Source: Patescibacteria group bacterium
Lineage (GTDB): Bacteria > Patescibacteriota > Patescibacteriia > UBA1558 > GWA2-36-10
Direction: 5' to 3'
DNA: 56,817 nt
NCBI GenBank assembly: GCA_041650755.1
Contig: JBAZKN010000002.1
Coordinates: 135,030 to 191,846, forward strand
Made by a program: the position numbers and the translations under genes. This document shows, piece after piece, positions 51,265-56,648 of the stretch. Under the pieces are notes generated by a model. It saw nothing but the letters and a program-made list of their open reading frames with translations, searched no databases and was not told the DNA's origin. Numbering within the stretch: position 1 is the stretch's first letter; the number at the start of each line of letters is the position of its first letter.

Positions 51265-52617
51265 ATGTCTTTAGCTGATTTAAAACATATATCACGGCCA
51301 CTATCTAGCGGTGGCATGGTCATGCTTTTAGATACTGGCGCGGTCATTGGTCCGGAATCAGAAGCCATGATCCAAGCACTGCATTCGCGCTCTACTGGCG
51401 GTGTCAAACATCATTTGGAAATTTTAGCCAAAAAAGGGTCAGAAGATTTTATGGCTAATTTTTATGTGGGCTATGGACACAAGTCAATCGGTGATTGCGG
51501 CAGTCTGACTTTATTTATTGAAGGCGTGTCCATGCTGGCGGCTAAAGCTATTCAGGACTGGGCCTTGTATAGCGGCCAGGAATCTTCCACTCGCTATGTG
51601 GATTTTTCCCAGCAGCTTTTTATTGATCCGGTTGGCACGGAAGCTTCCAAAGCCATATTAGAAAACTGGCGGCAGTTTTATCTGAATTCTAGAGCCCAAG
51701 TAGAAGAGCATTTGAAAAAGCAGTTTCCCATTCAGGCTGGCGAGGAAGAAAAGATTTATAATAAAGCTATCAGTGCTCGCGGTTTTGATATTTTGCGCGG
51801 TTTTTTGCCAGCCGGCGCATCTACCAATCTAGCTTGGCACAGCAATATGCGCCAAGTTGCCGATAAGCTAATGCTTTTGCGGCATCATCCTTTGGCCGAG
51901 GTGAGGGAAGTAGCTCAAAAGCTGCAGGAAGTATGCCAGGAAAAATATCCCAGCTCTTTTACTTGGGAGATTTTTGACACCACGGAAAATTATAATCAGC
52001 AGTGGCTTACGCAAAATTATTATTTTACTCACGAGACATTCAAAGAAACCAAATTATTGCACGATGGCATTGATAAAGATATTTTGAAGCAATATAAAAA
52101 TATTTTGGAGAATCGGCCTATGAAAACCGAGTTGCCGAAACTTTTAGCTCAAGCCGGCACTTTGCAATTTGGTTTTATGTTGGATTTTGGCTCGTTTCGC
52201 GATATTCAACGTCATCGAGCTGTTGTGCAGCGTATGCCTCTTTTGACCACTGAACACGGTTTTGCCCAATTTTATTTTGACTCTTTGCCTGAAGCAGTCT
52301 GCAGACAAGCCAAAGAACTAGTTGCTTCCCAGGAGCAAAAAATCAAGAGTCTAAATATTGATCCAAAAGTAGCTCAGTATTATACGGCCATGGGCTATGA
52401 TTTGCCCAATATGGTCAGCGGTGATTTGCCAGCTTTGGTTTATTTGATTGAGCTCCGGTCTACCAGATTTGTGCATCCAACTCTGCAAAGGCGGGCTATT
52501 GAAATGGCTCATATTTTGGCGAAAGAATTTGGCGCTTATGGCTTAAAACTGCATTTAGACCAAGAGCCGGGCCGTTTTGATATCAAGCGCGGCGAGCACG
52601 ATATTGTGATGAAATAA
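51265..52617 (+). CDS. thyX: Long FAD-dependent thymidylate synthase (ThyX/Thy1-like, two-domain)
   Basis: YGHKSIGDC, GQESSTRY, RGFLPAG, FRDIQRHR, LIELRS. Confidence 0.8.
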   Translation: MSLADLKHISRPLSSGGMVMLLDTGAVIGPESEAMIQALHSRSTGGVKHHLEILAKKGSEDFMANFYVGYGHKSIGDCGSLTLFIEGVSMLAAKAIQDWALYSGQESSTRYVDFSQQLFIDPVGTEASKAILENWRQFYLNSRAQVEEHLKKQFPIQAGEEEKIYNKAISARGFDILRGFLPAGASTNLAWHSNMRQVADKLMLLRHHPLAEVREVAQKLQEVCQEKYPSSFTWEIFDTTENYNQQWLTQNYYFTHETFKETKLLHDGIDKDILKQYKNILENRPMKTELPKLLAQAGTLQFGFMLDFGSFRDIQRHRAVVQRMPLLTTEHGFAQFYFDSLPEAVCRQAKELVASQEQKIKSLNIDPKVAQYYTAMGYDLPNMVSGDLPALVYLIELRSTRFVHPTLQRRAIEMAHILAKEFGAYGLKLHLDQEPGRFDIKRGEHDIVMK

Positions 52618-52620
52618 AGT

Positions 52621-53166
52621 ATGAAAATCCCATTAGAGCAAATAGTTAAAAAGGAGTGTCAAAGAGAAACCAATATCTATGGTATGAATGCTTATGAGCA
52701 TATTAAAAGTGTAGTAAAATATGCGGAAATGTTGGCACAAAAAAGGAAAGCTGATGAAGAGATAGTAAAGATTTCAGCGTGGCTTCATGACATGGGGAGT
52801 ATTTTAGGTGATACAGAAAATCATCATGTTAGTAGTGGAATATACGCAGAAGAATTATTAAAAAAATATAATTACCCTCAAGATAAAATTGATGCCATTA
52901 AGCATTGTATTTTTGCTCATAGGGGTAGTCAGAATATAAAGAGGGAAACAATAGAAGCAGAATGTTTGGCTGATGCTGATTCTATGTCCCATTTTGACAG
53001 TGTAGTCGGCTTATTTCGATTAGCTCTTATAACTAAAAAAATGACCGAAGCCGAGGCTAAAGAATTTGTCTACAATAAATTAATGAGGTCATGGAATAAA
53101 TTAACTTCAGAAGCCAAAGATATAATAAAAGATAAATATTTAGCTGTTGAAACCTTGTTAAAATAA
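52621..53166 (+). CDS. HD-domain phosphohydrolase
   Basis: EHI..V, AWLHDMG, HHVSSG, CIFAHR, LADAD. Confidence 0.88.
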   Translation: MKIPLEQIVKKECQRETNIYGMNAYEHIKSVVKYAEMLAQKRKADEEIVKISAWLHDMGSILGDTENHHVSSGIYAEELLKKYNYPQDKIDAIKHCIFAHRGSQNIKRETIEAECLADADSMSHFDSVVGLFRLALITKKMTEAEAKEFVYNKLMRSWNKLTSEAKDIIKDKYLAVETLLK

Positions 53167-53168
53167 TT

Positions 53169-53591
53169 ATGAAAATAAAAGCTAAAAAACTATATCCCGA
53201 TGCAATTTTGCCCCAAGCCATGCGCCACGGAGACGCCGCTTTGGATTTGTATAGTTATCGTGATTATACATTGAAACCAGGAGAGCGAGTGGTGGTTGAT
53301 ACCGGGGTGGCATTTGCCATACCCAATGGCTACTGGGGCAATGTCCGTGATCGAGGCGGTCTGCCGGCTAAGCATGGTATTCATACTATGGGGGGCGTGC
53401 TTGATTCCAATTATCGTGGCGACTTAGGCGTTATTGTTATTAACTTAGGAAAAGAAGTTTATCAAATAAAAAAAGGCGATCGCATTGCCCAGATGATTGT
53501 TGAAAAGCATGAAGACATTGAGATAGAAGAGGTCAGCGAGCTTGATGAAACAAATCGGGGAGAAAATAGATTTGCTTCAAGCGGATATTAA
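53169..53591 (+). CDS. dut: dUTP diphosphatase
   Basis: AALDL, RDRGG (RSG-like), GVLDSNYRG, GDRIAQ, RGENRFASSG. Confidence 0.93.
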   Translation: MKIKAKKLYPDAILPQAMRHGDAALDLYSYRDYTLKPGERVVVDTGVAFAIPNGYWGNVRDRGGLPAKHGIHTMGGVLDSNYRGDLGVIVINLGKEVYQIKKGDRIAQMIVEKHEDIEIEEVSELDETNRGENRFASSGY

Positions 53592-53619
53592 TTAAGTATA
53601 AATTTAATAAAGAAAAGCG

Positions 53620-53937
53620 ATGGATAAACAATATTTTGTTTATATTTTGGCAAATTATAAAAATGGGACTTTGTATGTTGGTGTAACCAATGATTTGTAT
53701 CGACGTGTAACTGAACACAAACAAGGTAGGGTAAAGGGATTTACACAAAGATATAAAGTTTATAAATTAGTTTATTACGAAGTCATCGATAATGTCTATA
53801 ATGCAATTACTAGAGAAAAACAAATAAAGAAATGGTATAGAAAATGGAAAATAGAATTAATTGAGAAGTATAATAAAAAGTGGGAAGATTTATATTATAA
53901 TTTATTTGATGGATCTCCGGGTCAAGCCCGAAGATGA
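53620..53937 (+). CDS. Small GIY-YIG nuclease family protein
   Basis: YFVYIL, GTLYVGVTNDLYRRV.EH, KLVYYE, AITREKQIKKW.RKWK.ELI. Confidence 0.92.
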   Translation: MDKQYFVYILANYKNGTLYVGVTNDLYRRVTEHKQGRVKGFTQRYKVYKLVYYEVIDNVYNAITREKQIKKWYRKWKIELIEKYNKKWEDLYYNLFDGSPGQARR

Positions 53938-53994
53938 CAAACATTAGCGGTGTTTTTATTGCTCTGCTAGTCATTCCCACGAAAGCGGGAATCC
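53911..53994. repeat. Inverted pair of GTCAT-tagged palindromes at the GIY-YIG 3' end
   Basis: Minus: GTCATCTTCGGGCTTGACCCGGAGATCC (53911-53938); plus: GTCATTCCCACGAAAGCGGGAATCC (53970-53994, ATTCCC-N8-GGGAAT core). Confidence 0.9.
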
Positions 53995-54017
53995 ATACCA
54001 CACATTAAGATATGTCC

Positions 54018-54445
54018 GGAAAATTTATCGTCTTTGCCGCTCAACTTAGTTCGGGCATGCCCACCATGAGTCGATCGGGACGAGTTATAATAAAAATATA
54101 TGGAGATAAAAAAAGTACAGAAAAAAGTTCATAAAATTTTTTTTGATGATCTAAAAAGCCACAAAATTAAAGCCGGTGACGATTATTTGATTTTAAAAAT
54201 TACCGAAGAGTTGGGCGAATTTGTCCAATCCTATTTGATTCACAAAAAAAGATGCCGACAAGAGAAGTGCTTGTCTATTCAGAAATCCAAACAATCGATA
54301 GCTAGAGAATTGGCCGATGTTTTATGTTTGGTTTTGGTGATTGCCAAAGAACTGGAGATTGATTTAGATGAAGCAGTTTTTAAAAAATGGATTAGCAAAG
54401 AATGGGTAAAATATAAATAATGAACAAAGGAAAATTTATCGTCTT
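54018..54445. mobile_element. mazG cassette bounded by a 17-bp direct repeat duplicating the tmk 5' end
   Basis: GGAAAATTTATCGTCTT at 54018-54034 and 54429-54445; the upstream copy is preceded by ATGTCC (MSGKFIVF remnant). Confidence 0.7.
54100..54420 (+). CDS. MazG-like nucleotide pyrophosphohydrolase
   Basis: KITEELGE...ELADVL...IDLDEA..KK. Confidence 0.85.
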   Translation: MEIKKVQKKVHKIFFDDLKSHKIKAGDDYLILKITEELGEFVQSYLIHKKRCRQEKCLSIQKSKQSIARELADVLCLVLVIAKELEIDLDEAVFKKWISKEWVKYK

Positions 54446-55037
54446 CGAAGGCGGAGAAAAATCAGGCAAAAGCACACAGCTAGAATTGCTGAAAAAATAT
54501 TTGGAAAGTAAAGGCCACCAAGTTGTTTTGACGCGCGAGCCGGGTAGCAAATTGTCTAATATTACCCAAAGCATTCGCGAAATAATTTTAAACAATAAAA
54601 ATACCAACCTGACGGCTCGCGCGGAGCTCCTGCTTTTTTTAGCTGATCGTTCGCAACATGTGTCAGAAATAGTAAAACCCGCCCTAGAACAGGGGAAGAT
54701 TGTACTTTGTGATCGTTTTGACGGCTCCAGTTTTGCTTATCAGGGTGCGGCTCGCCATTTGGATTTAGAGGAGCTAAAACCAATAAATAATTGGGCAAAA
54801 TTCGGCTTAACGCCTGATTTGGTGGTATACTTAGATATAAGCCCAGAGGAGGCGACCAAGCGCAGTCGTGATGAAAAACATGATCGTTTGGATGCTGAAA
54901 ATCAGGCCTTTCATGAGGCAGTACGGGCTGGCTATTTAGAGCAAGCCAAGCAGCCAAATTGGTTTACTGTTTCAGCGGTTGGAGATATCCAAGAAATCGC
55001 TAAAAAAATTCAGCAAGCAGTTGATAAAATTTTATGA
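54420..55037 (+). CDS. tmk: Thymidylate kinase
   Basis: FIVFEGGEKSGKSTQ, TREPG, LFLADR, DRFDGSSFAYQG, PDLVVYLD. Confidence 0.96.
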   Translation: MNKGKFIVFEGGEKSGKSTQLELLKKYLESKGHQVVLTREPGSKLSNITQSIREIILNNKNTNLTARAELLLFLADRSQHVSEIVKPALEQGKIVLCDRFDGSSFAYQGAARHLDLEELKPINNWAKFGLTPDLVVYLDISPEEATKRSRDEKHDRLDAENQAFHEAVRAGYLEQAKQPNWFTVSAVGDIQEIAKKIQQAVDKIL

Positions 55038-55039
55038 GT

Positions 55040-55142
55040 CCTGTTAGAAATTAATTGGAGATTGTAAGATGGGTGAGTATAATTCTATAAAAAAATAACT
55101 TTACTTTAATATAAAATTTTTAATAAATAAATTTCTAACGGG
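55040..55142. mobile_element. 103-bp MITE-like insertion with 13-bp TIRs and ATGAGT target duplication
   Basis: CCTGTTAGAAATT / AATTTCTAACGGG (12/13); ATGAGT at 55034-55039 and 55143-55148. Confidence 0.75.
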
Positions 55143-56648
55143 ATGAGTAAATACGAAACAATAATTGGTTTGGAAATACACATTCAGCTCAAAACCAAGA
55201 GCAAGATGTTTTGCGCGTGCCCAAACCAAGATGGGCAAAAGCCAAACACTAATGTTTGCCCGATTTGTCTGGGGCATCCCGGTACTTTGCCGACAATAAA
55301 TCAGGCTGCCGTGGAGCAGGGCTTGCTTTTGGCCTTGGCCTTGGCTTGCAAAATAAATAAAAAATCGAAGTTTGACCGCAAAAACTATTTTTATCCGGAT
55401 TTGCCCAAAGGTTATCAGATCTCGCAATTTGATGAGCCGCTGGCAGTCAAGGGCAAATTTTTTATTGATATGGATAAAAAAAGAAAGCGGATCGGCATTA
55501 CCCGTTTGCATTTAGAAGAAGATGCGGCCAAAAATATTCATACGGCTGACAAGACTTTGGTGGATTTCAACCGTGGCGGCGCGCCTCTTGCCGAAATAGT
55601 CACTGAACCGGATTTTCGTAATCCCCAAGAAGCCAAAGAATTTTTGAGCCAATTGCGCTTGCTGGCCCGCTATCTCAATGTGTCGGATGCGGATATGGAA
55701 AAAGGACATTTACGCTGTGATGCCAATATTTCTCTGCGCCCCAAGGGAGATAATAAATATTATCCCAAAATAGAGATCAAAAATTTGAATTCTTTTCGTT
55801 CGGTTGAGCGAGCTTTGCAGTATGAGATTGAGCGGCAGAATGCTTTGTGGGATAAAAAGCAGGCACCCAAAATTACCGAAACTCGCGGCTGGGATGAAAA
55901 TAAACAAATGACTGTTTTGCAGCGCACCAAAGAGGGCTCGTCAGACTATCGCTATTTTCCGGAGCCAGATTTGCCCCCGTTGATCATAGATCAGAAAATG
56001 TTGGACAGAATAGCCGTTCTTTTGCCGGAATTACCGCTAGCTAAACAAGATAGATTTGTCAAAGAATATGCTTTGCGCCCAGCTGATGCCAAAGTGCTGA
56101 TTAACCAAAAAGACTGGGCAGCCTACTTTGAAGAGGTAATGTCGGATTTACGGGCTTGGGTTTGCGATTGGAAAAATATAGCCATAGAGTCAGCGGCTGG
56201 TGAAAAACTTTGGGCTGAACACAAGCAGGAACTAGCTCGCCTGACTTGGGCTTGGATTACCAGTGAGTTGTTTAAGCTTATTCCCCATGATTTTACTGTT
56301 AAGGATTTAAGAATTACCGCTGAAAATATGGCGGAGTTTATCAACTTGATCTATCTTAAAAAAATAAATAGTACGGCCGGCCAGCAGGTTTTAGCGGCCA
56401 TGTTTAGTGGCAGTGATGATGATCCTTCTCATATTGCTGATAAGATGAATCTGACACAGATTGATGATGACACAACGCTGGAGGGCTTGGTAATGAAAGT
56501 AATTTTATTATATCCCCAGCAAGTTGAGCAGTATAAAAAAGGCAAAGTTGCCTTACTGCAATTTTTCTTGGGTCAAGTGATGAAAGAGAGTAAGGGTAAG
56601 GCCAACCCCAGTTTAGTGGAAAAAATGCTTAAAGAAAAACTAACTTAG
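55143..56648 (+). CDS. gatB: Asp/Glu-tRNA amidotransferase subunit B
   Basis: IGLEIHIQL, FDRKNYFYPDLPKGYQISQ, HLEEDA, RCDANIS, EIKNLNS, YRYFPEPDL, KGKANP. Confidence 0.97.
   Translation: MSKYETIIGLEIHIQLKTKSKMFCACPNQDGQKPNTNVCPICLGHPGTLPTINQAAVEQGLLLALALACKINKKSKFDRKNYFYPDLPKGYQISQFDEPLAVKGKFFIDMDKKRKRIGITRLHLEEDAAKNIHTADKTLVDFNRGGAPLAEIVTEPDFRNPQEAKEFLSQLRLLARYLNVSDADMEKGHLRCDANISLRPKGDNKYYPKIEIKNLNSFRSVERALQYEIERQNALWDKKQAPKITETRGWDENKQMTVLQRTKEGSSDYRYFPEPDLPPLIIDQKMLDRIAVLLPELPLAKQDRFVKEYALRPADAKVLINQKDWAAYFEEVMSDLRAWVCDWKNIAIESAAGEKLWAEHKQELARLTWAWITSELFKLIPHDFTVKDLRITAENMAEFINLIYLKKINSTAGQQVLAAMFSGSDDDPSHIADKMNLTQIDDDTTLEGLVMKVILLYPQQVEQYKKGKVALLQFFLGQVMKESKGKANPSLVEKMLKEKLT

What the first reader, a model, noticed from the sequence alone, without database searches (positions are those of the whole stretch)
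54012..54445. mazG cassette inserted into the first codons of tmk, leaving a dead start and supplying a new one
ATGTCC-GGAAAATTTATCGTCTT-T (MSGKFIVF) at 54012 is an abandoned copy of the tmk N-terminus, and tmk now begins ATGAACAAA-GGAAAATTTATCGTCTT-C at 54420. The 17-bp direct repeat brackets ~394 bp containing a repeat module, a TATAAT box and mazG, whose stop abuts the new tmk start. This is the attL/attR-like signature of an integrative single-gene cassette that targets and repairs an essential gene, yet it encodes no recombinase.
Basis: partly seen in the sequence, partly recalled or inferred. Interest (0 to 1): 0.7.

Follow-up and report, generated by a model that had tools for sequence, protein, structure and literature searches.

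The report
Recombination scar at the tmk start
The stranded copy of the thymidylate kinase gene start is real, but it looks like a scar from repeated swapping of gene versions between related ultra-small bacteria, not the footprint of a self-inserting mazG cassette.

Summary
The exact 17-nt repeat (54018-54034 and 54429-54445) is real.

- **Upstream copy.** It is a 25-nt relic of a type-A tmk start (ATGTCC...TTTG, MSGKFIVF). The closest tmk relatives (75-89% identical) are mostly 204 aa and start M-x-GKFIVFEGG; the very closest starts MSGKFIVFEGG. Joining the two flanks gives exactly such a gene.
- **Working tmk.** It is a chimera. Its first three codons (ATGAACAAA) and mazG match loci ordered dut-mazG-tmkB-gatB, where tmk starts ATGAACCAA or ATGAATAGG. 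Its body, through the first ~30-100 nt of gatB, is type-A tmk imported from another genus: tmk is 89% identical to that genus, but gatB only 67%, and the tmk and gatB trees disagree.
- **The repeat itself.** It is the stretch that both tmk types share (GKFIV).

The same A/B swap, with breakpoints in the tmk start and at the gatB start, separates two contigs whose gatB is 96% identical. No recombinase, terminal repeats, attC or second occupied tmk site was found.

I read this as a one-off scar of short-homology plus illegitimate recombination in a mosaic locus. The order of events is unresolved. A role for the adjacent GIY-YIG nuclease and its hairpins is possible but unproven.

The parts
52621..53591 (+). 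HD-domain hydrolase (52621-53166) and dut (53169-53591). This is the left flank, of the 'B-type' locus form (HD-dut-mazG-tmkB-gatB).
   Evidence: Pfam HD and dUTPase. An HD gene is found next to dut only in the window and L063, at 77% aa identity. The last 30 nt of dut match L063 at 29/30, against 25/30 for A-type L060 and L002.
53592..53606 (+). Left half of the B-type dut-mazG spacer (TTAAGTATAAATTTA).
   Evidence: 13 of 15 bases match TTAAGTAGAAAGTTA, which leads straight into mazG in L063, L054 and L057. A-type loci have unrelated spacers.
53607..53937 (+). Small single-domain GIY-YIG nuclease gene (ORF 53620-53937, 105 aa) with its own 5' flank (..AAGAAAAGCG).
   Evidence: Pfam GIY-YIG 66 bits. 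Nearest solved structures are the UPF0213 proteins 1zg2 and 1ywl. The gene plus its 5' flank aligns at 67% nt with a GIY-YIG gene that lies directly upstream of type-A tmk in L202.
53911..53994 (+). Two GC-rich hairpin modules. Module a is 53911-53938. Module b is 53970-53994 and contains ATTCCC-N8-GGGAAT. Module b is flanked by ACATTA at 53941-53946 and 54002-54007.
   Evidence: Sequence. Both fold modestly as ssDNA (z -1.4 and -0.9). Module b has 4-5 copies in the genome. Similar hairpins precede type-A tmk in L060, L201 and L202.
54012..54036 (+). Relic of a type-A tmk start: ATGTCC + the 17-mer + TTTG (MSGKFIVF). The left repeat copy is 54018-54034.
   Evidence: It matches the starts of the closest tmk relatives codon for codon (L060: ATGTCAGGTAAATTCATCGTATTTGAAGG). 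Joining 54012-54017 to 54429-55037 gives an in-frame 204-aa tmk whose first 28 residues are identical to P0079.
54037..54083 (+). 47-nt GC-rich filler of unknown origin at the non-homologous junction.
   Evidence: Unique in the genome, in all fetched loci and in 401 class genomes. No viral or phage match. Not a stable hairpin. Weak likeness to the 3' end of tRNA-Ile(GAT), with an 11-nt exact match.
54084..54428 (+). B-type segment: the mazG-proximal spacer, MazG-like NTP pyrophosphohydrolase gene (54100-54420, 106 aa) and the new tmk start codons ATGAACAAA (54420-54428).
   Evidence: 75-78% nt identity to L054, L055 and L057, running from about 54083-54099 through 54442-54457. mazG is 71-75% aa identical to genes that all lie dut-mazG-tmkB-gatB. 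Pfam MazG. Weak PDB hits to 5ie9 and 2gta.
54429..54445 (+). Right repeat copy. This is the crossover zone, in the stretch conserved between the two tmk types (codons GKFIV[F]).
   Evidence: Alignment of both copies with A-type and B-type tmk starts. A-type nucleotide homology begins at 54428, and B-type homology ends at 54442-54457.
54420..55037 (+). Working tmk, 205 aa. It is a chimera of a B-type start (MNK) and a type-A body.
   Evidence: TIGR00041 186 bits. 87-89% aa identity to genus g4 tmk, against 66-67% for gatB. It nests in a 100/99 clade with the g4 sequences.
55034..55148 (+). 103-bp MITE (55040-55142) with 13-nt terminal inverted repeats and a 6-bp ATGAGT duplication, inserted in the tmk-stop/gatB-start ATGA overlap.
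   Evidence: Sequence. Removing the MITE and one ATGAGT gives a junction identical over about 46 nt to the L060 tmk/gatB overlap. The TIR 13-mer occurs 13 times in the genome.
55143..56648 (+). gatB. The first ~30-100 nt are A-type; the rest is backbone, closest to genus g2.
   Evidence: The first 29 nt are identical to L060. From about 360 nt onward the gene is closer to L019 and L020. In the gatB tree the window groups with g2 at 100/99, far from the g4 clade.

Best explanation
**What it is.** The repeat marks a recombination scar in a mosaic thymidylate operon, not a mobile cassette. Related genomes carry two interchangeable forms of this locus.
- **A-type:** dut-(variable)-tmkA-gatB. tmkA is canonical, 204 aa, and starts M-x-GKFIVFEGG.
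- **B-type:** HD-dut-mazG-tmkB-gatB. tmkB is divergent, about 225 aa, and starts MN(Q/R)GKFIVIDG.

**How the window is built.** The two forms are interleaved:
1. B: HD-dut and the left half of the spacer.
2. A: GIY-YIG, hairpins, tmkA 5'UTR and the first 25 nt of tmkA.
3. 47 nt of filler.
4. B: the right half of the spacer, mazG and ATGAACAAA.
5. A: the tmkA body and the gatB start.
6. Backbone gatB.

**The junctions.**
- The right-hand join lies in the only stretch the two tmk types share (GGAAAATTTAT.GT.., GKFIV). Both flanks of the mazG segment therefore carry the same 17 nt.
- The left-hand join (tmkA +25 | filler) has no homology and is illegitimate.
- Because tmk is essential, only products with an intact reading frame survive. 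That alone makes the event look as if it 'targets and repairs' the gene.

**Most likely process (inferred).** DNA from relatives was taken up and integrated by short-homology crossover at one end and illegitimate joining at the other (homology-facilitated illegitimate recombination, or mosaic transformation), in one or two steps.

**Shown versus inferred.** Shown: the anatomy, both parental arrangements in nature, the import of tmkA, and the recurrence of the A/B swap with the same breakpoints. Inferred: the enzymology and the order of events.

**Function today (from family knowledge).** mazG, a house-cleaning dNTP pyrophosphatase, and tmk are read as one tightly coupled pair (TAATG). The relic is non-functional.
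For: 1. **The relic is a type-A start.** Of the 18 closest tmk proteins, 14 are 204 aa, two of 206 aa differ only by a C-terminal extension, and these 16 start M-x-GKFIVFEGG. P0079, P0093 and P0092 have MSGKF. Only the window has MNKGKF. The empty-site join gives a 204-aa tmk, 182/204 identical to P0079.
2. **Empty-type sites exist.** These are thyX-dut-tmkA-gatB in L200 and in the P0093 contig.
3. **mazG and the new start are B-type.** The seven loci with mazG at 71-75% identity all read dut-mazG-tmkB-gatB, with starts ATGAACCAA or ATGAATAGG and no relic.
4. **The left flank is B-type.** This rests on HD-dut synteny and the spacer.
5. **tmkA is imported.** Window versus L060: tmk 89% aa, but gatB 67%, dut 77% and thyX 78%. 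L060 versus L002 (same genus): tmk is only 86% while gatB is 92%. The tmk tree nests the window inside the g4 clade (100/99). The gatB tree puts it with g2 (100/99). The tmk/gatB junction is identical to L060 over about 46 nt once the MITE is removed.
6. **The swap recurs with the same breakpoints.** L018 (tmkB) and L201 (tmkA) have gatB 96% nt identical over 1328 nt. L018 versus L202 keeps homology in the upstream gene, in the first 36 nt of tmk (92%) and from the gatB start (88%), but none in the tmk body.
7. **No cassette machinery**.
8. **Published precedent.** HFIR integrates linear DNA by homology at one end and illegitimate joining at the other (PMC3240628). Single transformation events can leave several discontinuous donor segments close together (PMC13344027). 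Both are cited from their abstracts.
Against: - The structure is known from one assembly only. No read-level or strain-level confirmation was possible.
- No relative has the same mosaic, and no mazG-tmkA donor was found among 5.8 billion proteins.
- A 17-nt anchor is very short for RecA-dependent integration. At least two events, or one complex event, are therefore needed, and their order is unresolved: either the mazG segment went into an A block, or A pieces went into a B locus.
- The 47-nt filler is unexplained.
- A GIY-YIG nuclease gene with hairpins sits right beside the relic, and two other gene-end duplications occur in the same genome. Together these hint at a more specific mechanism.
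Confidence: 0.6

Rival explanations
1. Nuclease- or hairpin-driven insertion. The neighbouring small GIY-YIG nuclease (Ssn/UPF0213-like) and its hairpin repeats would promote these events. Two routes are possible. It could act as a homing-like selfish block (GIY-hairpins-tmkA) that displaces tmkB alleles after a break in the conserved tmk start. Or it could cut incoming single-stranded DNA at hairpins during transformation. On either route, the relic is the scar of an imprecise event at a locus that carried the extra gene mazG.
For: - GIY-YIG plus a dRS3-like hairpin (ATTCCC-N8-GGGAAT) lies directly left of the relic.
- In L202 a homologous GIY-YIG with hairpins lies directly upstream of tmkA. 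Its near relative L018 has neither the nuclease nor tmkA, but tmkB instead.
- Both junctions in tmkA coordinates fall within 17-25 nt of the start, as expected if a break occurs there.
- The same genome holds a 5' half of tRNA-Ser stranded upstream of hairpins, a GIY-YIG gene and an intact tRNA-Ser. It also holds a duplicated folD 3' end around a GC-rich module.
- Ssn-family GIY-YIG nucleases cut ssDNA at flanking hairpin repeats and modulate transformation (PMC11893778).
- Earlier scan notes describe similar start-codon duplications beside such genes. These are unchecked leads.
Against: - The nuclease lies outside the repeat-bounded segment.
- The DNA between the repeats is syntenic B-type DNA plus a non-folding, unique filler, not a hairpin element.
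- The protein is a bare 105-aa catalytic domain with no DNA-binding domain, unlike Seg/Mob/I-TevI homing enzymes.
- Most tmkA loci lack a GIY-YIG gene (L060, L002, L200).
- Among the tmk-anchored loci, only the window, L063 and L202 carry a GIY-YIG gene.
- No activity data exist.
Confidence: 0.22
2. One reading: a site-specific integrative single-gene cassette. A circular mazG unit carrying its own copy of the tmk start recombines with the chromosomal tmk start through a 17-bp att-like core, by a recombinase supplied in trans. This leaves attL and attR and restores the essential gene.
For: - A perfect 17-nt direct repeat flanks a single gene, and the frame is restored exactly.
- The mazG subfamily is patchily spread over CPR bacteria, DPANN archaea and other phyla, so the gene is mobile on evolutionary time scales.
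- The genome encodes 5 tyrosine and 3 serine recombinases elsewhere.
- An unchecked scan note reports a 26-bp duplication of a tmk start bracketing one gene in another genome.
Against: - There is no recombinase in or beside the unit, no terminal inverted repeats, and no attC; the mazG stop overlaps the tmk ATG.
- The closest mazG genes are fixed between dut and tmk without relics, and the window shares that HD-dut-spacer flank.
- More distant mazG genes (66% identity or less) are never next to tmk.
- Only 1 of 32 tmk loci has the duplication.
- The 'core' is just the codons shared by the two tmk families, and base 18 already differs between the copies.
- The tmk body to the right of the 'attR' is itself foreign to the backbone.
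Confidence: 0.08
3. Assembly artefact: the contig is a chimera of two co-occurring populations, one with the A-type locus and one with the B-type.
For: - The genome is a metagenome-assembled genome, and the mosaic is seen in a single contig only (one contig for both proteins).
- Both locus forms coexist in closely related organisms.
- An identical stretch of about 46 nt at the tmk/gatB junction could bridge an assembly graph.
Against: - A 17-nt shared stretch is shorter than usual assembly k-mers.
- The relic/filler junction shares nothing with either parent, so graph mis-joining cannot create it.
- All reading frames are intact and tightly coupled.
- The window's tmkA is only 81% nt identical to any known A-type tmk, so it is not a known contaminant.
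- Genome completeness is 99.3% and contamination 0.2%.
Confidence: 0.04

Closest known systems
Homology-facilitated illegitimate recombination, and mosaic outcomes of natural transformation (Acinetobacter baylyi, Streptococcus pneumoniae, Pseudomonas stutzeri, Bacillus subtilis; PMC3240628, PMC13344027)
   Same: - One junction lies in sequence shared by donor and recipient.
- The other junction is non-homologous and carries filler.
- The donor comes from a related organism with the same locus.
- Donor and recipient segments are interleaved over a few hundred bases.
   Different: - The homologous junction here is only 17 nt if the donor carried tmkB, whereas laboratory HFIR needs anchors of 100 nt or more (my own recollection of that literature).
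- The process is inferred from a scar, not observed.
- The event falls in the first codons of an essential gene and swaps its start codons.
Xenologous (in-situ) gene displacement of essential genes
   Same: Two deeply divergent Tmk types (26-33% identical; TIGR00041-type and PRK07933-like) occupy the same slot between dut-side genes and gatB within one family. The two types are even found in contigs whose gatB is 96% identical.
   Different: The breakpoints can be read to within a few bases (the conserved first ~36 nt of tmk, and the gatB start). One event left a stranded start.
Ssn nucleases with NTS/SRM hairpin repeats (Chenal et al. 2025, PMC11893778), and UPF0213 GIY-YIG proteins (PDB 1zg2, 1ywl)
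   Same: - A small single-domain GIY-YIG protein.
- It is flanked by a dRS3-like hairpin (ATTCCC-N8-GGGAAT) that is dispersed in the genome.
- The family is linked to modulation of natural transformation.
   Different: - Membership in cd10448 was not tested, because no CDD search was available.
- The nuclease is outside the duplicated segment.
- No evidence shows that it made this scar.
Free-standing GIY-YIG homing endonucleases of T-even phages (SegB-G, MobE; e.g. SegB, PMC2330249)
   Same: - A nuclease gene sits beside, not inside, a nucleotide-metabolism gene.
- Presence or absence of the nuclease co-varies with the allele of the neighbouring gene (L202 versus L018).
- Flanking markers are co-transferred.
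   Different: - There is no DNA-binding domain.
- The setting is a bacterial chromosome, not a phage.
- Most tmkA alleles have no such neighbour.
- Cleavage of the rival allele is untested.
Integrative elements that rebuild the end of their target gene (tRNA- or gene-end-targeting islands) and integron cassettes
   Same: A direct repeat of the target's end flanks the insert. The target gene stays intact because the insert brings a replacement end.
   Different: There is no integrase, no attC or attI, no recurrence at the site and no element ends. The insert is syntenic DNA of a sister locus form.

Membership tests
Site-specific integrative element (attL/attR, tyrosine or serine recombinase) | Identical core sequence flanking the insert | tested here: met
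   Exact 17-nt direct repeat. The 18th base already differs between the copies.
Site-specific integrative element (attL/attR, tyrosine or serine recombinase) | Recombinase encoded in or next to the element | tested here: not met
   Only mazG lies between the repeats. The genome's 5 Phage_integrase and 3 Resolvase hits all lie outside the window.
Site-specific integrative element (attL/attR, tyrosine or serine recombinase) | The same site is occupied in independent genomes, with empty sites carrying one core | tested here: not met
   Empty-type sites exist (L200 and the P0093 contig). No second occupied site was found among 32 tmk loci. mazG homologues at 66% identity or less are never next to tmk.
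Site-specific integrative element (attL/attR, tyrosine or serine recombinase) | Excised circle or restored empty site in reads | not testable with these tools
Integron gene cassette | attC recombination site after the cassette ORF, with intI and attI nearby | tested here: not met
   The mazG stop overlaps the tmk ATG, leaving no room for an attC. No tyrosine recombinase lies in the window. No attC model was available to scan with.
IS- or MITE-type transposon insertion | Terminal inverted repeats at the insert ends and multiple copies of the element | tested here: not met
   No inverted repeat pairs the ends of 54035-54428. The filler and the insert are single-copy. By contrast, the MITE at 55040-55142 has TIRs, a 6-bp duplication and other copies.
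Homology-facilitated illegitimate / homeologous recombination scar | One junction lies in sequence shared by both parental forms; the other is non-homologous | tested here: met
   The right junction lies in the GKFIV codons shared by the A-type and B-type tmk. The left junction (tmkA +25 | 47-nt filler) has no match anywhere.
Homology-facilitated illegitimate / homeologous recombination scar | Both parental arrangements exist at the same locus in related organisms | tested here: met
   B-type: L054-L059 and L063. A-type: L002, L060 and L200-L202. The swap occurs between near-identical backgrounds.
Homology-facilitated illegitimate / homeologous recombination scar | The process is observed directly (transformation, RecA dependence) | not testable with these tools
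   The organism is uncultured, so this step is inference only.
Free-standing GIY-YIG homing endonuclease (Seg/Mob type) | GIY-YIG catalytic domain plus a C-terminal DNA-binding domain | tested here: not met
   The catalytic domain is present (66 bits). However, the protein is 105 aa with no second domain, and its tail is read from a hairpin module.
Free-standing GIY-YIG homing endonuclease (Seg/Mob type) | Presence/absence polymorphism with co-conversion of the neighbouring gene | tested here: inconclusive
   L202 (GIY + tmkA) versus L018 (no GIY, tmkB) fits. L060, L002 and L200 carry tmkA without a GIY gene.
Ssn nuclease / SRM hairpin system | Small cd10448-type GIY-YIG protein flanked by NTS/SRM-like hairpins | tested here: inconclusive
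   There are UPF0213 PDB hits. A dRS3-like hairpin lies at 53973-53992 with 4-5 genomic copies. CDD assignment and the published SRM search pattern were not available.
MazG-like all-alpha NTP pyrophosphohydrolase | MazG domain with the conserved acidic EExxE metal-binding motif | tested here: met
   PF03819 scores 25.4 bits against a cut-off of 22. E36, E37, E40 and D73 are invariant in 33 homologues. PDB hits to 5ie9 and 2gta are weak. Activity and substrate are untested.
dTMP kinase (Tmk) | Full-length match to TIGR00041 / PF02223 with the P-loop | tested here: met
   TIGR00041 scores 186 bits against a cut-off of 83; PF02223 scores 167 bits over profile positions 1-185. tmkB of relatives scores PF02223 59-77 bits and is PRK07933-like.

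The most novel reading that the evidence does not exclude
The block GIY-YIG nuclease + hairpins + tmkA is a homing-like selfish unit of ultra-small (CPR) bacteria. It would spread by breaking, or exploiting breaks in, the conserved first codons of rival tmk alleles, and so displace an essential gene in situ.

The stranded start, together with the similar tRNA-Ser and folD relics in this genome, would be footprints of a general nuclease- or hairpin-assisted process. That process would insert genes into the first or last codons of resident genes and rebuild their ends. It would amount to a recombinase-free form of gene-cassette mobility.
Probability: 0.15. Interest if true: 0.75.

Novelty: new member of a known kind. 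Interest (0 to 1): 0.4.

Why it matters
- **Resolution.** The window shows, almost to the base, how an essential gene in a tightly packed operon of a reduced genome can be exchanged for a very different version and still keep working. The crossover sits in the few conserved codons at the gene start. The old start is left behind as a fossil.
- **A warning for interpretation.** A perfect direct repeat around a single gene, with the target gene 'repaired', can arise without any cassette machinery. Selection on an essential gene filters for exactly such products.
- **Frequency.** Two Tmk types only about 30% identical alternate at one locus, even between contigs with 96% identical neighbouring genes. 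That suggests frequent DNA exchange among these uncultured bacteria.
- **A testable question.** It can now be asked whether the adjacent small GIY-YIG nucleases and their hairpins drive that exchange.

Tried and rejected
2. **Module c as a dispersed repeat or hairpin.** It is unique in the genome, in the fetched loci and in 401 class genomes. It does not fold, has no viral or phage match, and shows only a weak likeness to a tRNA-Ile 3' end.
3. **Other tmk-targeted insertions.** None was found in 32 tmk loci.
4. **mazG as a tmk-linked cassette family.** Among about 140 mazG loci, only the clade at 71% identity or more lies next to tmk.
5. **A donor with GIY-YIG closest to the window's.** The family is huge and the closest member is 72% identical, so this was uninformative.
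6. **A recombination breakpoint inside dut.** The identity profiles to A-type and B-type loci are too similar to call one, apart from the last 30 nt and the spacer.
7. **Relic flank as a remnant of a dut stop (ATTAA).** Rejected as too short to mean anything.
8. **Promoter claim.** The TATAAT was not supported by the scan.
9. **Integron reading.** Rejected, because there is no room for an attC and no integrase nearby.
10. **Order of events.** Whether the mazG segment entered an A block or A pieces entered a B locus could not be resolved. The first needs a coincidence in spacer coordinates, and the second a coincidence in tmk coordinates.
Full report
**Observation.** GGAAAATTTATCGTCTT occurs exactly twice in the window, at 54018-54034 and 54429-54445. 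Shuffled sequence expects 0.03 matches even with two mismatches allowed. The first copy follows ATGTCC and opens a 40-codon dead-end ORF. The second follows ATGAACAAA and opens a full-length dTMP kinase (54420-55037; Pfam 167 bits, TIGR00041 186 bits). Between the copies lie 47 nt of GC-rich sequence, a short AT-rich leader and a 106-aa MazG-like gene (54100-54420). The mazG TAA overlaps the tmk ATG. Exact 17-nt direct repeats within 1.5 kb are not rare in this genome. What matters is that this one falls in frame on the tmk start.

**Context.** The genome is about 1.0 Mb and belongs to a Patescibacteria (CPR) bacterium. The gene order is tandem-ThyX, HD hydrolase, dut, a 105-aa GIY-YIG nuclease gene with two hairpin modules, the tmk relic, filler, mazG, tmk, a 103-bp MITE, and gatB.

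**The relic is a type-A tmk start.**
- The 18 closest Tmk proteins in 5.8 billion (75-89% identity) are mostly 204 aa and start M-x-GKFIVFEGG.
- The closest, P0079, starts MSGKFIVFEGG, as do P0093 and P0092. Only the window has MNKGKF and 205 aa.
- The DNA of P0079's contig reads ATGTCAGGTAAATTCATCGTATTTGAAGG. This matches the relic ATGTCCGGAAAATTTATCGTCTTTG codon for codon over 25 nt.
- Joining 54012-54017 to 54429-55037 gives an in-frame 204-aa Tmk whose first 28 residues equal P0079.
- Sites with dut directly followed by tmkA exist in L200 and in the P0093 contig.

**mazG and the new start codons belong to a second form of the same locus.**
- The closest mazG genes (71-75% aa; L054-L059, L063) all lie dut-mazG-tmk-gatB.
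- There, tmk is a different type ('B', about 225 aa, only 26-29% identical to the window's Tmk, PRK07933-like). It starts ATGAACCAA, ATGAATAGG or ATGAAATCA followed by GGAAAATT. No relic is present.
- Nucleotide homology of the window to these loci runs from about 54083-54099 through 54442-54457. Homology to type-A loci starts at 54428. The 17-mer is therefore the overlap, and it encodes GKFIV, the stretch both Tmk types share.
- More distant members of this mazG subfamily (66% identity or less; about 130 loci in CPR bacteria, DPANN archaea and others) are never next to tmk or dut.

**The window is a nested mosaic.**
- *Left flank.* It is B-type. An HD gene precedes dut only in the window and L063 (77% aa). 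The last 30 nt of dut match L063 at 29/30. The next 15 nt (TTAAGTATAAATTTA) match the B-type dut-mazG spacer at 13/15, and A-type spacers are unrelated.
- *A-type block.* It follows the spacer. It comprises the GIY-YIG gene with its 5' flank, which is homologous to a GIY-YIG gene sitting directly upstream of tmkA in L202; hairpins like those before tmkA in L060, L201 and L202; a tmkA-like 5'UTR; and the 25-nt relic.
- *Middle.* Next come the filler, then the B-type mazG segment.
- *Right side.* The tmkA body follows. After removal of the MITE and one ATGAGT copy, it joins gatB through an ATGA overlap identical to L060 over about 46 nt.
- *gatB.* From a few hundred nt into gatB, the sequence is closest to a third group, genus g2.

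**tmkA is imported.**
- Window versus L060: Tmk 89% aa, but GatB 67%, Dut 77% and ThyX 78%.
- L060 versus L002, which share 96% Dut and 92% GatB, have only 86% Tmk.
- In a Tmk tree the window nests inside the clade holding these genomes (100/99).
- In a GatB tree it groups with g2, which carries tmkB, at 100/99 and far from that clade.

**The A/B swap recurs with the same breakpoints.**
- Across the family, both Tmk types occupy the slot before gatB, and they differ even within a genus (G003 has type A, G022 has type B).
- L018 (G022, tmkB) and L201 (tmkA) have gatB 96% identical over 1328 nt.
- L018 versus L202 keeps homology in the upstream gene (80%), in the first 36 nt of tmk (92%) and from the gatB start (88%). 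There is none in the tmk body. L202 additionally carries the GIY-YIG gene and hairpins.
- The window's chimeric MNK-tmkA start is what such a swap produces in a locus where mazG precedes tmk.

**Tests of the cassette model.**
- No recombinase gene lies in or beside the segment. The 5 tyrosine and 3 serine recombinase genes are elsewhere in the genome.
- No inverted repeats pair the insert ends, and there is no room for an attC.
- Only 1 of 32 tmk loci has the duplication.
- The 'repeat module' is unique and unstructured.
- The model explains the repeat, but not the B-type left flank, the foreign tmk body or the fixed position of the closest mazG genes.

**Mechanism (inferred).** Two orders of events fit the anatomy.
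- *X.* An A block (GIY-hairpins-tmkA-gatB start) replaced mazG-tmkB. A mazG segment from a co-existing B-type or chimeric sibling was then inserted at tmkA +25. That insertion was homologous on the right and illegitimate on the left.
- *Y.* The tmk body was swapped by crossovers in the tmk start and the gatB start. Separately, or in the same transformation episode, a donor piece ending at the crossover zone (GIY-hairpins-tmkA 5' end) was captured in the dut-mazG spacer.
- X needs two junctions to coincide in spacer coordinates. Y needs two to coincide in tmk coordinates. I cannot choose between them.
- Both are short-homology plus illegitimate recombination of DNA from relatives. This is documented as HFIR (PMC3240628) and as discontinuous mosaic transformation tracts (PMC13344027).
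- Selection on an essential gene explains why the surviving product has a perfect frame.

**Possible role of the nuclease.**
- The GIY-YIG protein resembles UPF0213 proteins. It sits next to a dRS3-like hairpin, as Ssn nucleases do; those cut ssDNA at such hairpins and modulate transformation (PMC11893778).
- The same genome has a stranded 5' half of tRNA-Ser upstream of hairpins, a GIY-YIG gene and an intact tRNA-Ser(GGA).
- It also has a duplicated folD 3' end around a GC-rich module.
- Earlier scan notes (unchecked leads) report similar start duplications in other CPR genomes, including one at another tmk.
- This keeps a nuclease-assisted mechanism alive (about 0.2). Here, however, the nuclease is outside the duplicated segment, and most tmkA loci lack one.

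**Limits.** The structure rests on one metagenomic contig. No sibling strain exists in the searched collections. The 47-nt filler is unexplained.

**Verdict.** The 'dead start plus new start' reading is right. The 'integrative cassette' reading is not supported. The feature is a recombination scar in a locus where an essential gene is repeatedly exchanged, which is moderately interesting, mainly for the in-situ Tmk displacement and the readable breakpoints.

Noticed in passing
L018 (G022), L201 and L202; family-wide in L001-L030: Two deeply divergent Tmk types alternate at the same slot before gatB. Type A is TIGR00041-like and about 204 aa. Type B is PRK07933-like and about 225 aa. They are 26-33% identical. 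The alternation occurs within a genus, and between contigs whose gatB is 96% nt identical. The breakpoints lie in the first ~36 nt of tmk and at the gatB start.
   Followed up: partly
window 55034-55148: A 103-bp AT-rich MITE with 13-nt terminal inverted repeats and a 6-bp ATGAGT duplication splits the tmk-stop/gatB-start ATGA overlap. Removing it restores a junction identical to L060 over about 46 nt. The TIR 13-mer occurs 13 times in the genome.
   Followed up: yes
G000:C4:31337-31754 (locus L203): A 36-nt 5' half of a tRNA-Ser-like gene (about 83% identical, ending in the anticodon loop) is stranded upstream of GC-rich hairpins, an 84-aa GIY-YIG gene and an intact tRNA-Ser(GGA). The topology matches the tmk relic.
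   Followed up: partly
G000:C4:68271-68420: The last ~45 nt of a folD-like gene (..GGVGPMTVAMLLYNT..) are duplicated with 4-5 mismatches on either side of a GC-rich module. This leaves a relic of the gene's 3' end.
   Followed up: partly
window 53941-54007: Hairpin module b (GTCATTCCCACGAAAGCGGGAATCC; dRS3-like ATTCCC-N8-GGGAAT; 4-5 copies in the genome) is flanked by ACATTA on both sides. Without this insert, the sequence resembles the conserved 5'UTR of type-A tmk (..GACAA..ACATT ATG). This suggests a small insertion with a 6-bp duplication.
   Followed up: partly
window 54037-54083: The 47-nt filler shares an 11-nt exact match (CATGCCCACCA), plus flanking similarity, with the 3' end of tRNA-Ile(GAT) at G000:C3:163020-163041. 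It may be a degraded tRNA-end or trailer fragment. The significance is borderline.
   Followed up: partly
L063-L198: This 105-aa MazG-like subfamily is patchily distributed, as a lone small gene in unrelated contexts. It occurs in CPR bacteria, DPANN archaea (Pacearchaeota, Woesearchaeota, Nanoarchaeota MAGs) and MAGs labelled Melioribacter or Gammaproteobacteria.
   Followed up: partly
L055/L056 (dut-mazG spacer): In one B-type relative the 20-nt dut-mazG spacer is expanded to 132 nt by two GTCAT...ATGAC-type hairpin modules. The same spacer is therefore an insertion hot spot elsewhere.
   Followed up: no
window 51265-52617: The ThyX-like protein is 450 aa, about twice the canonical length.
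   Followed up: no
G000:C2:132863-134082 and G000:C4:96908-98337: Long exact direct repeats lie just outside the window or on another contig: 172 nt at 1047 nt spacing, and 136 nt at 1293 nt spacing. They were not examined.
   Followed up: no
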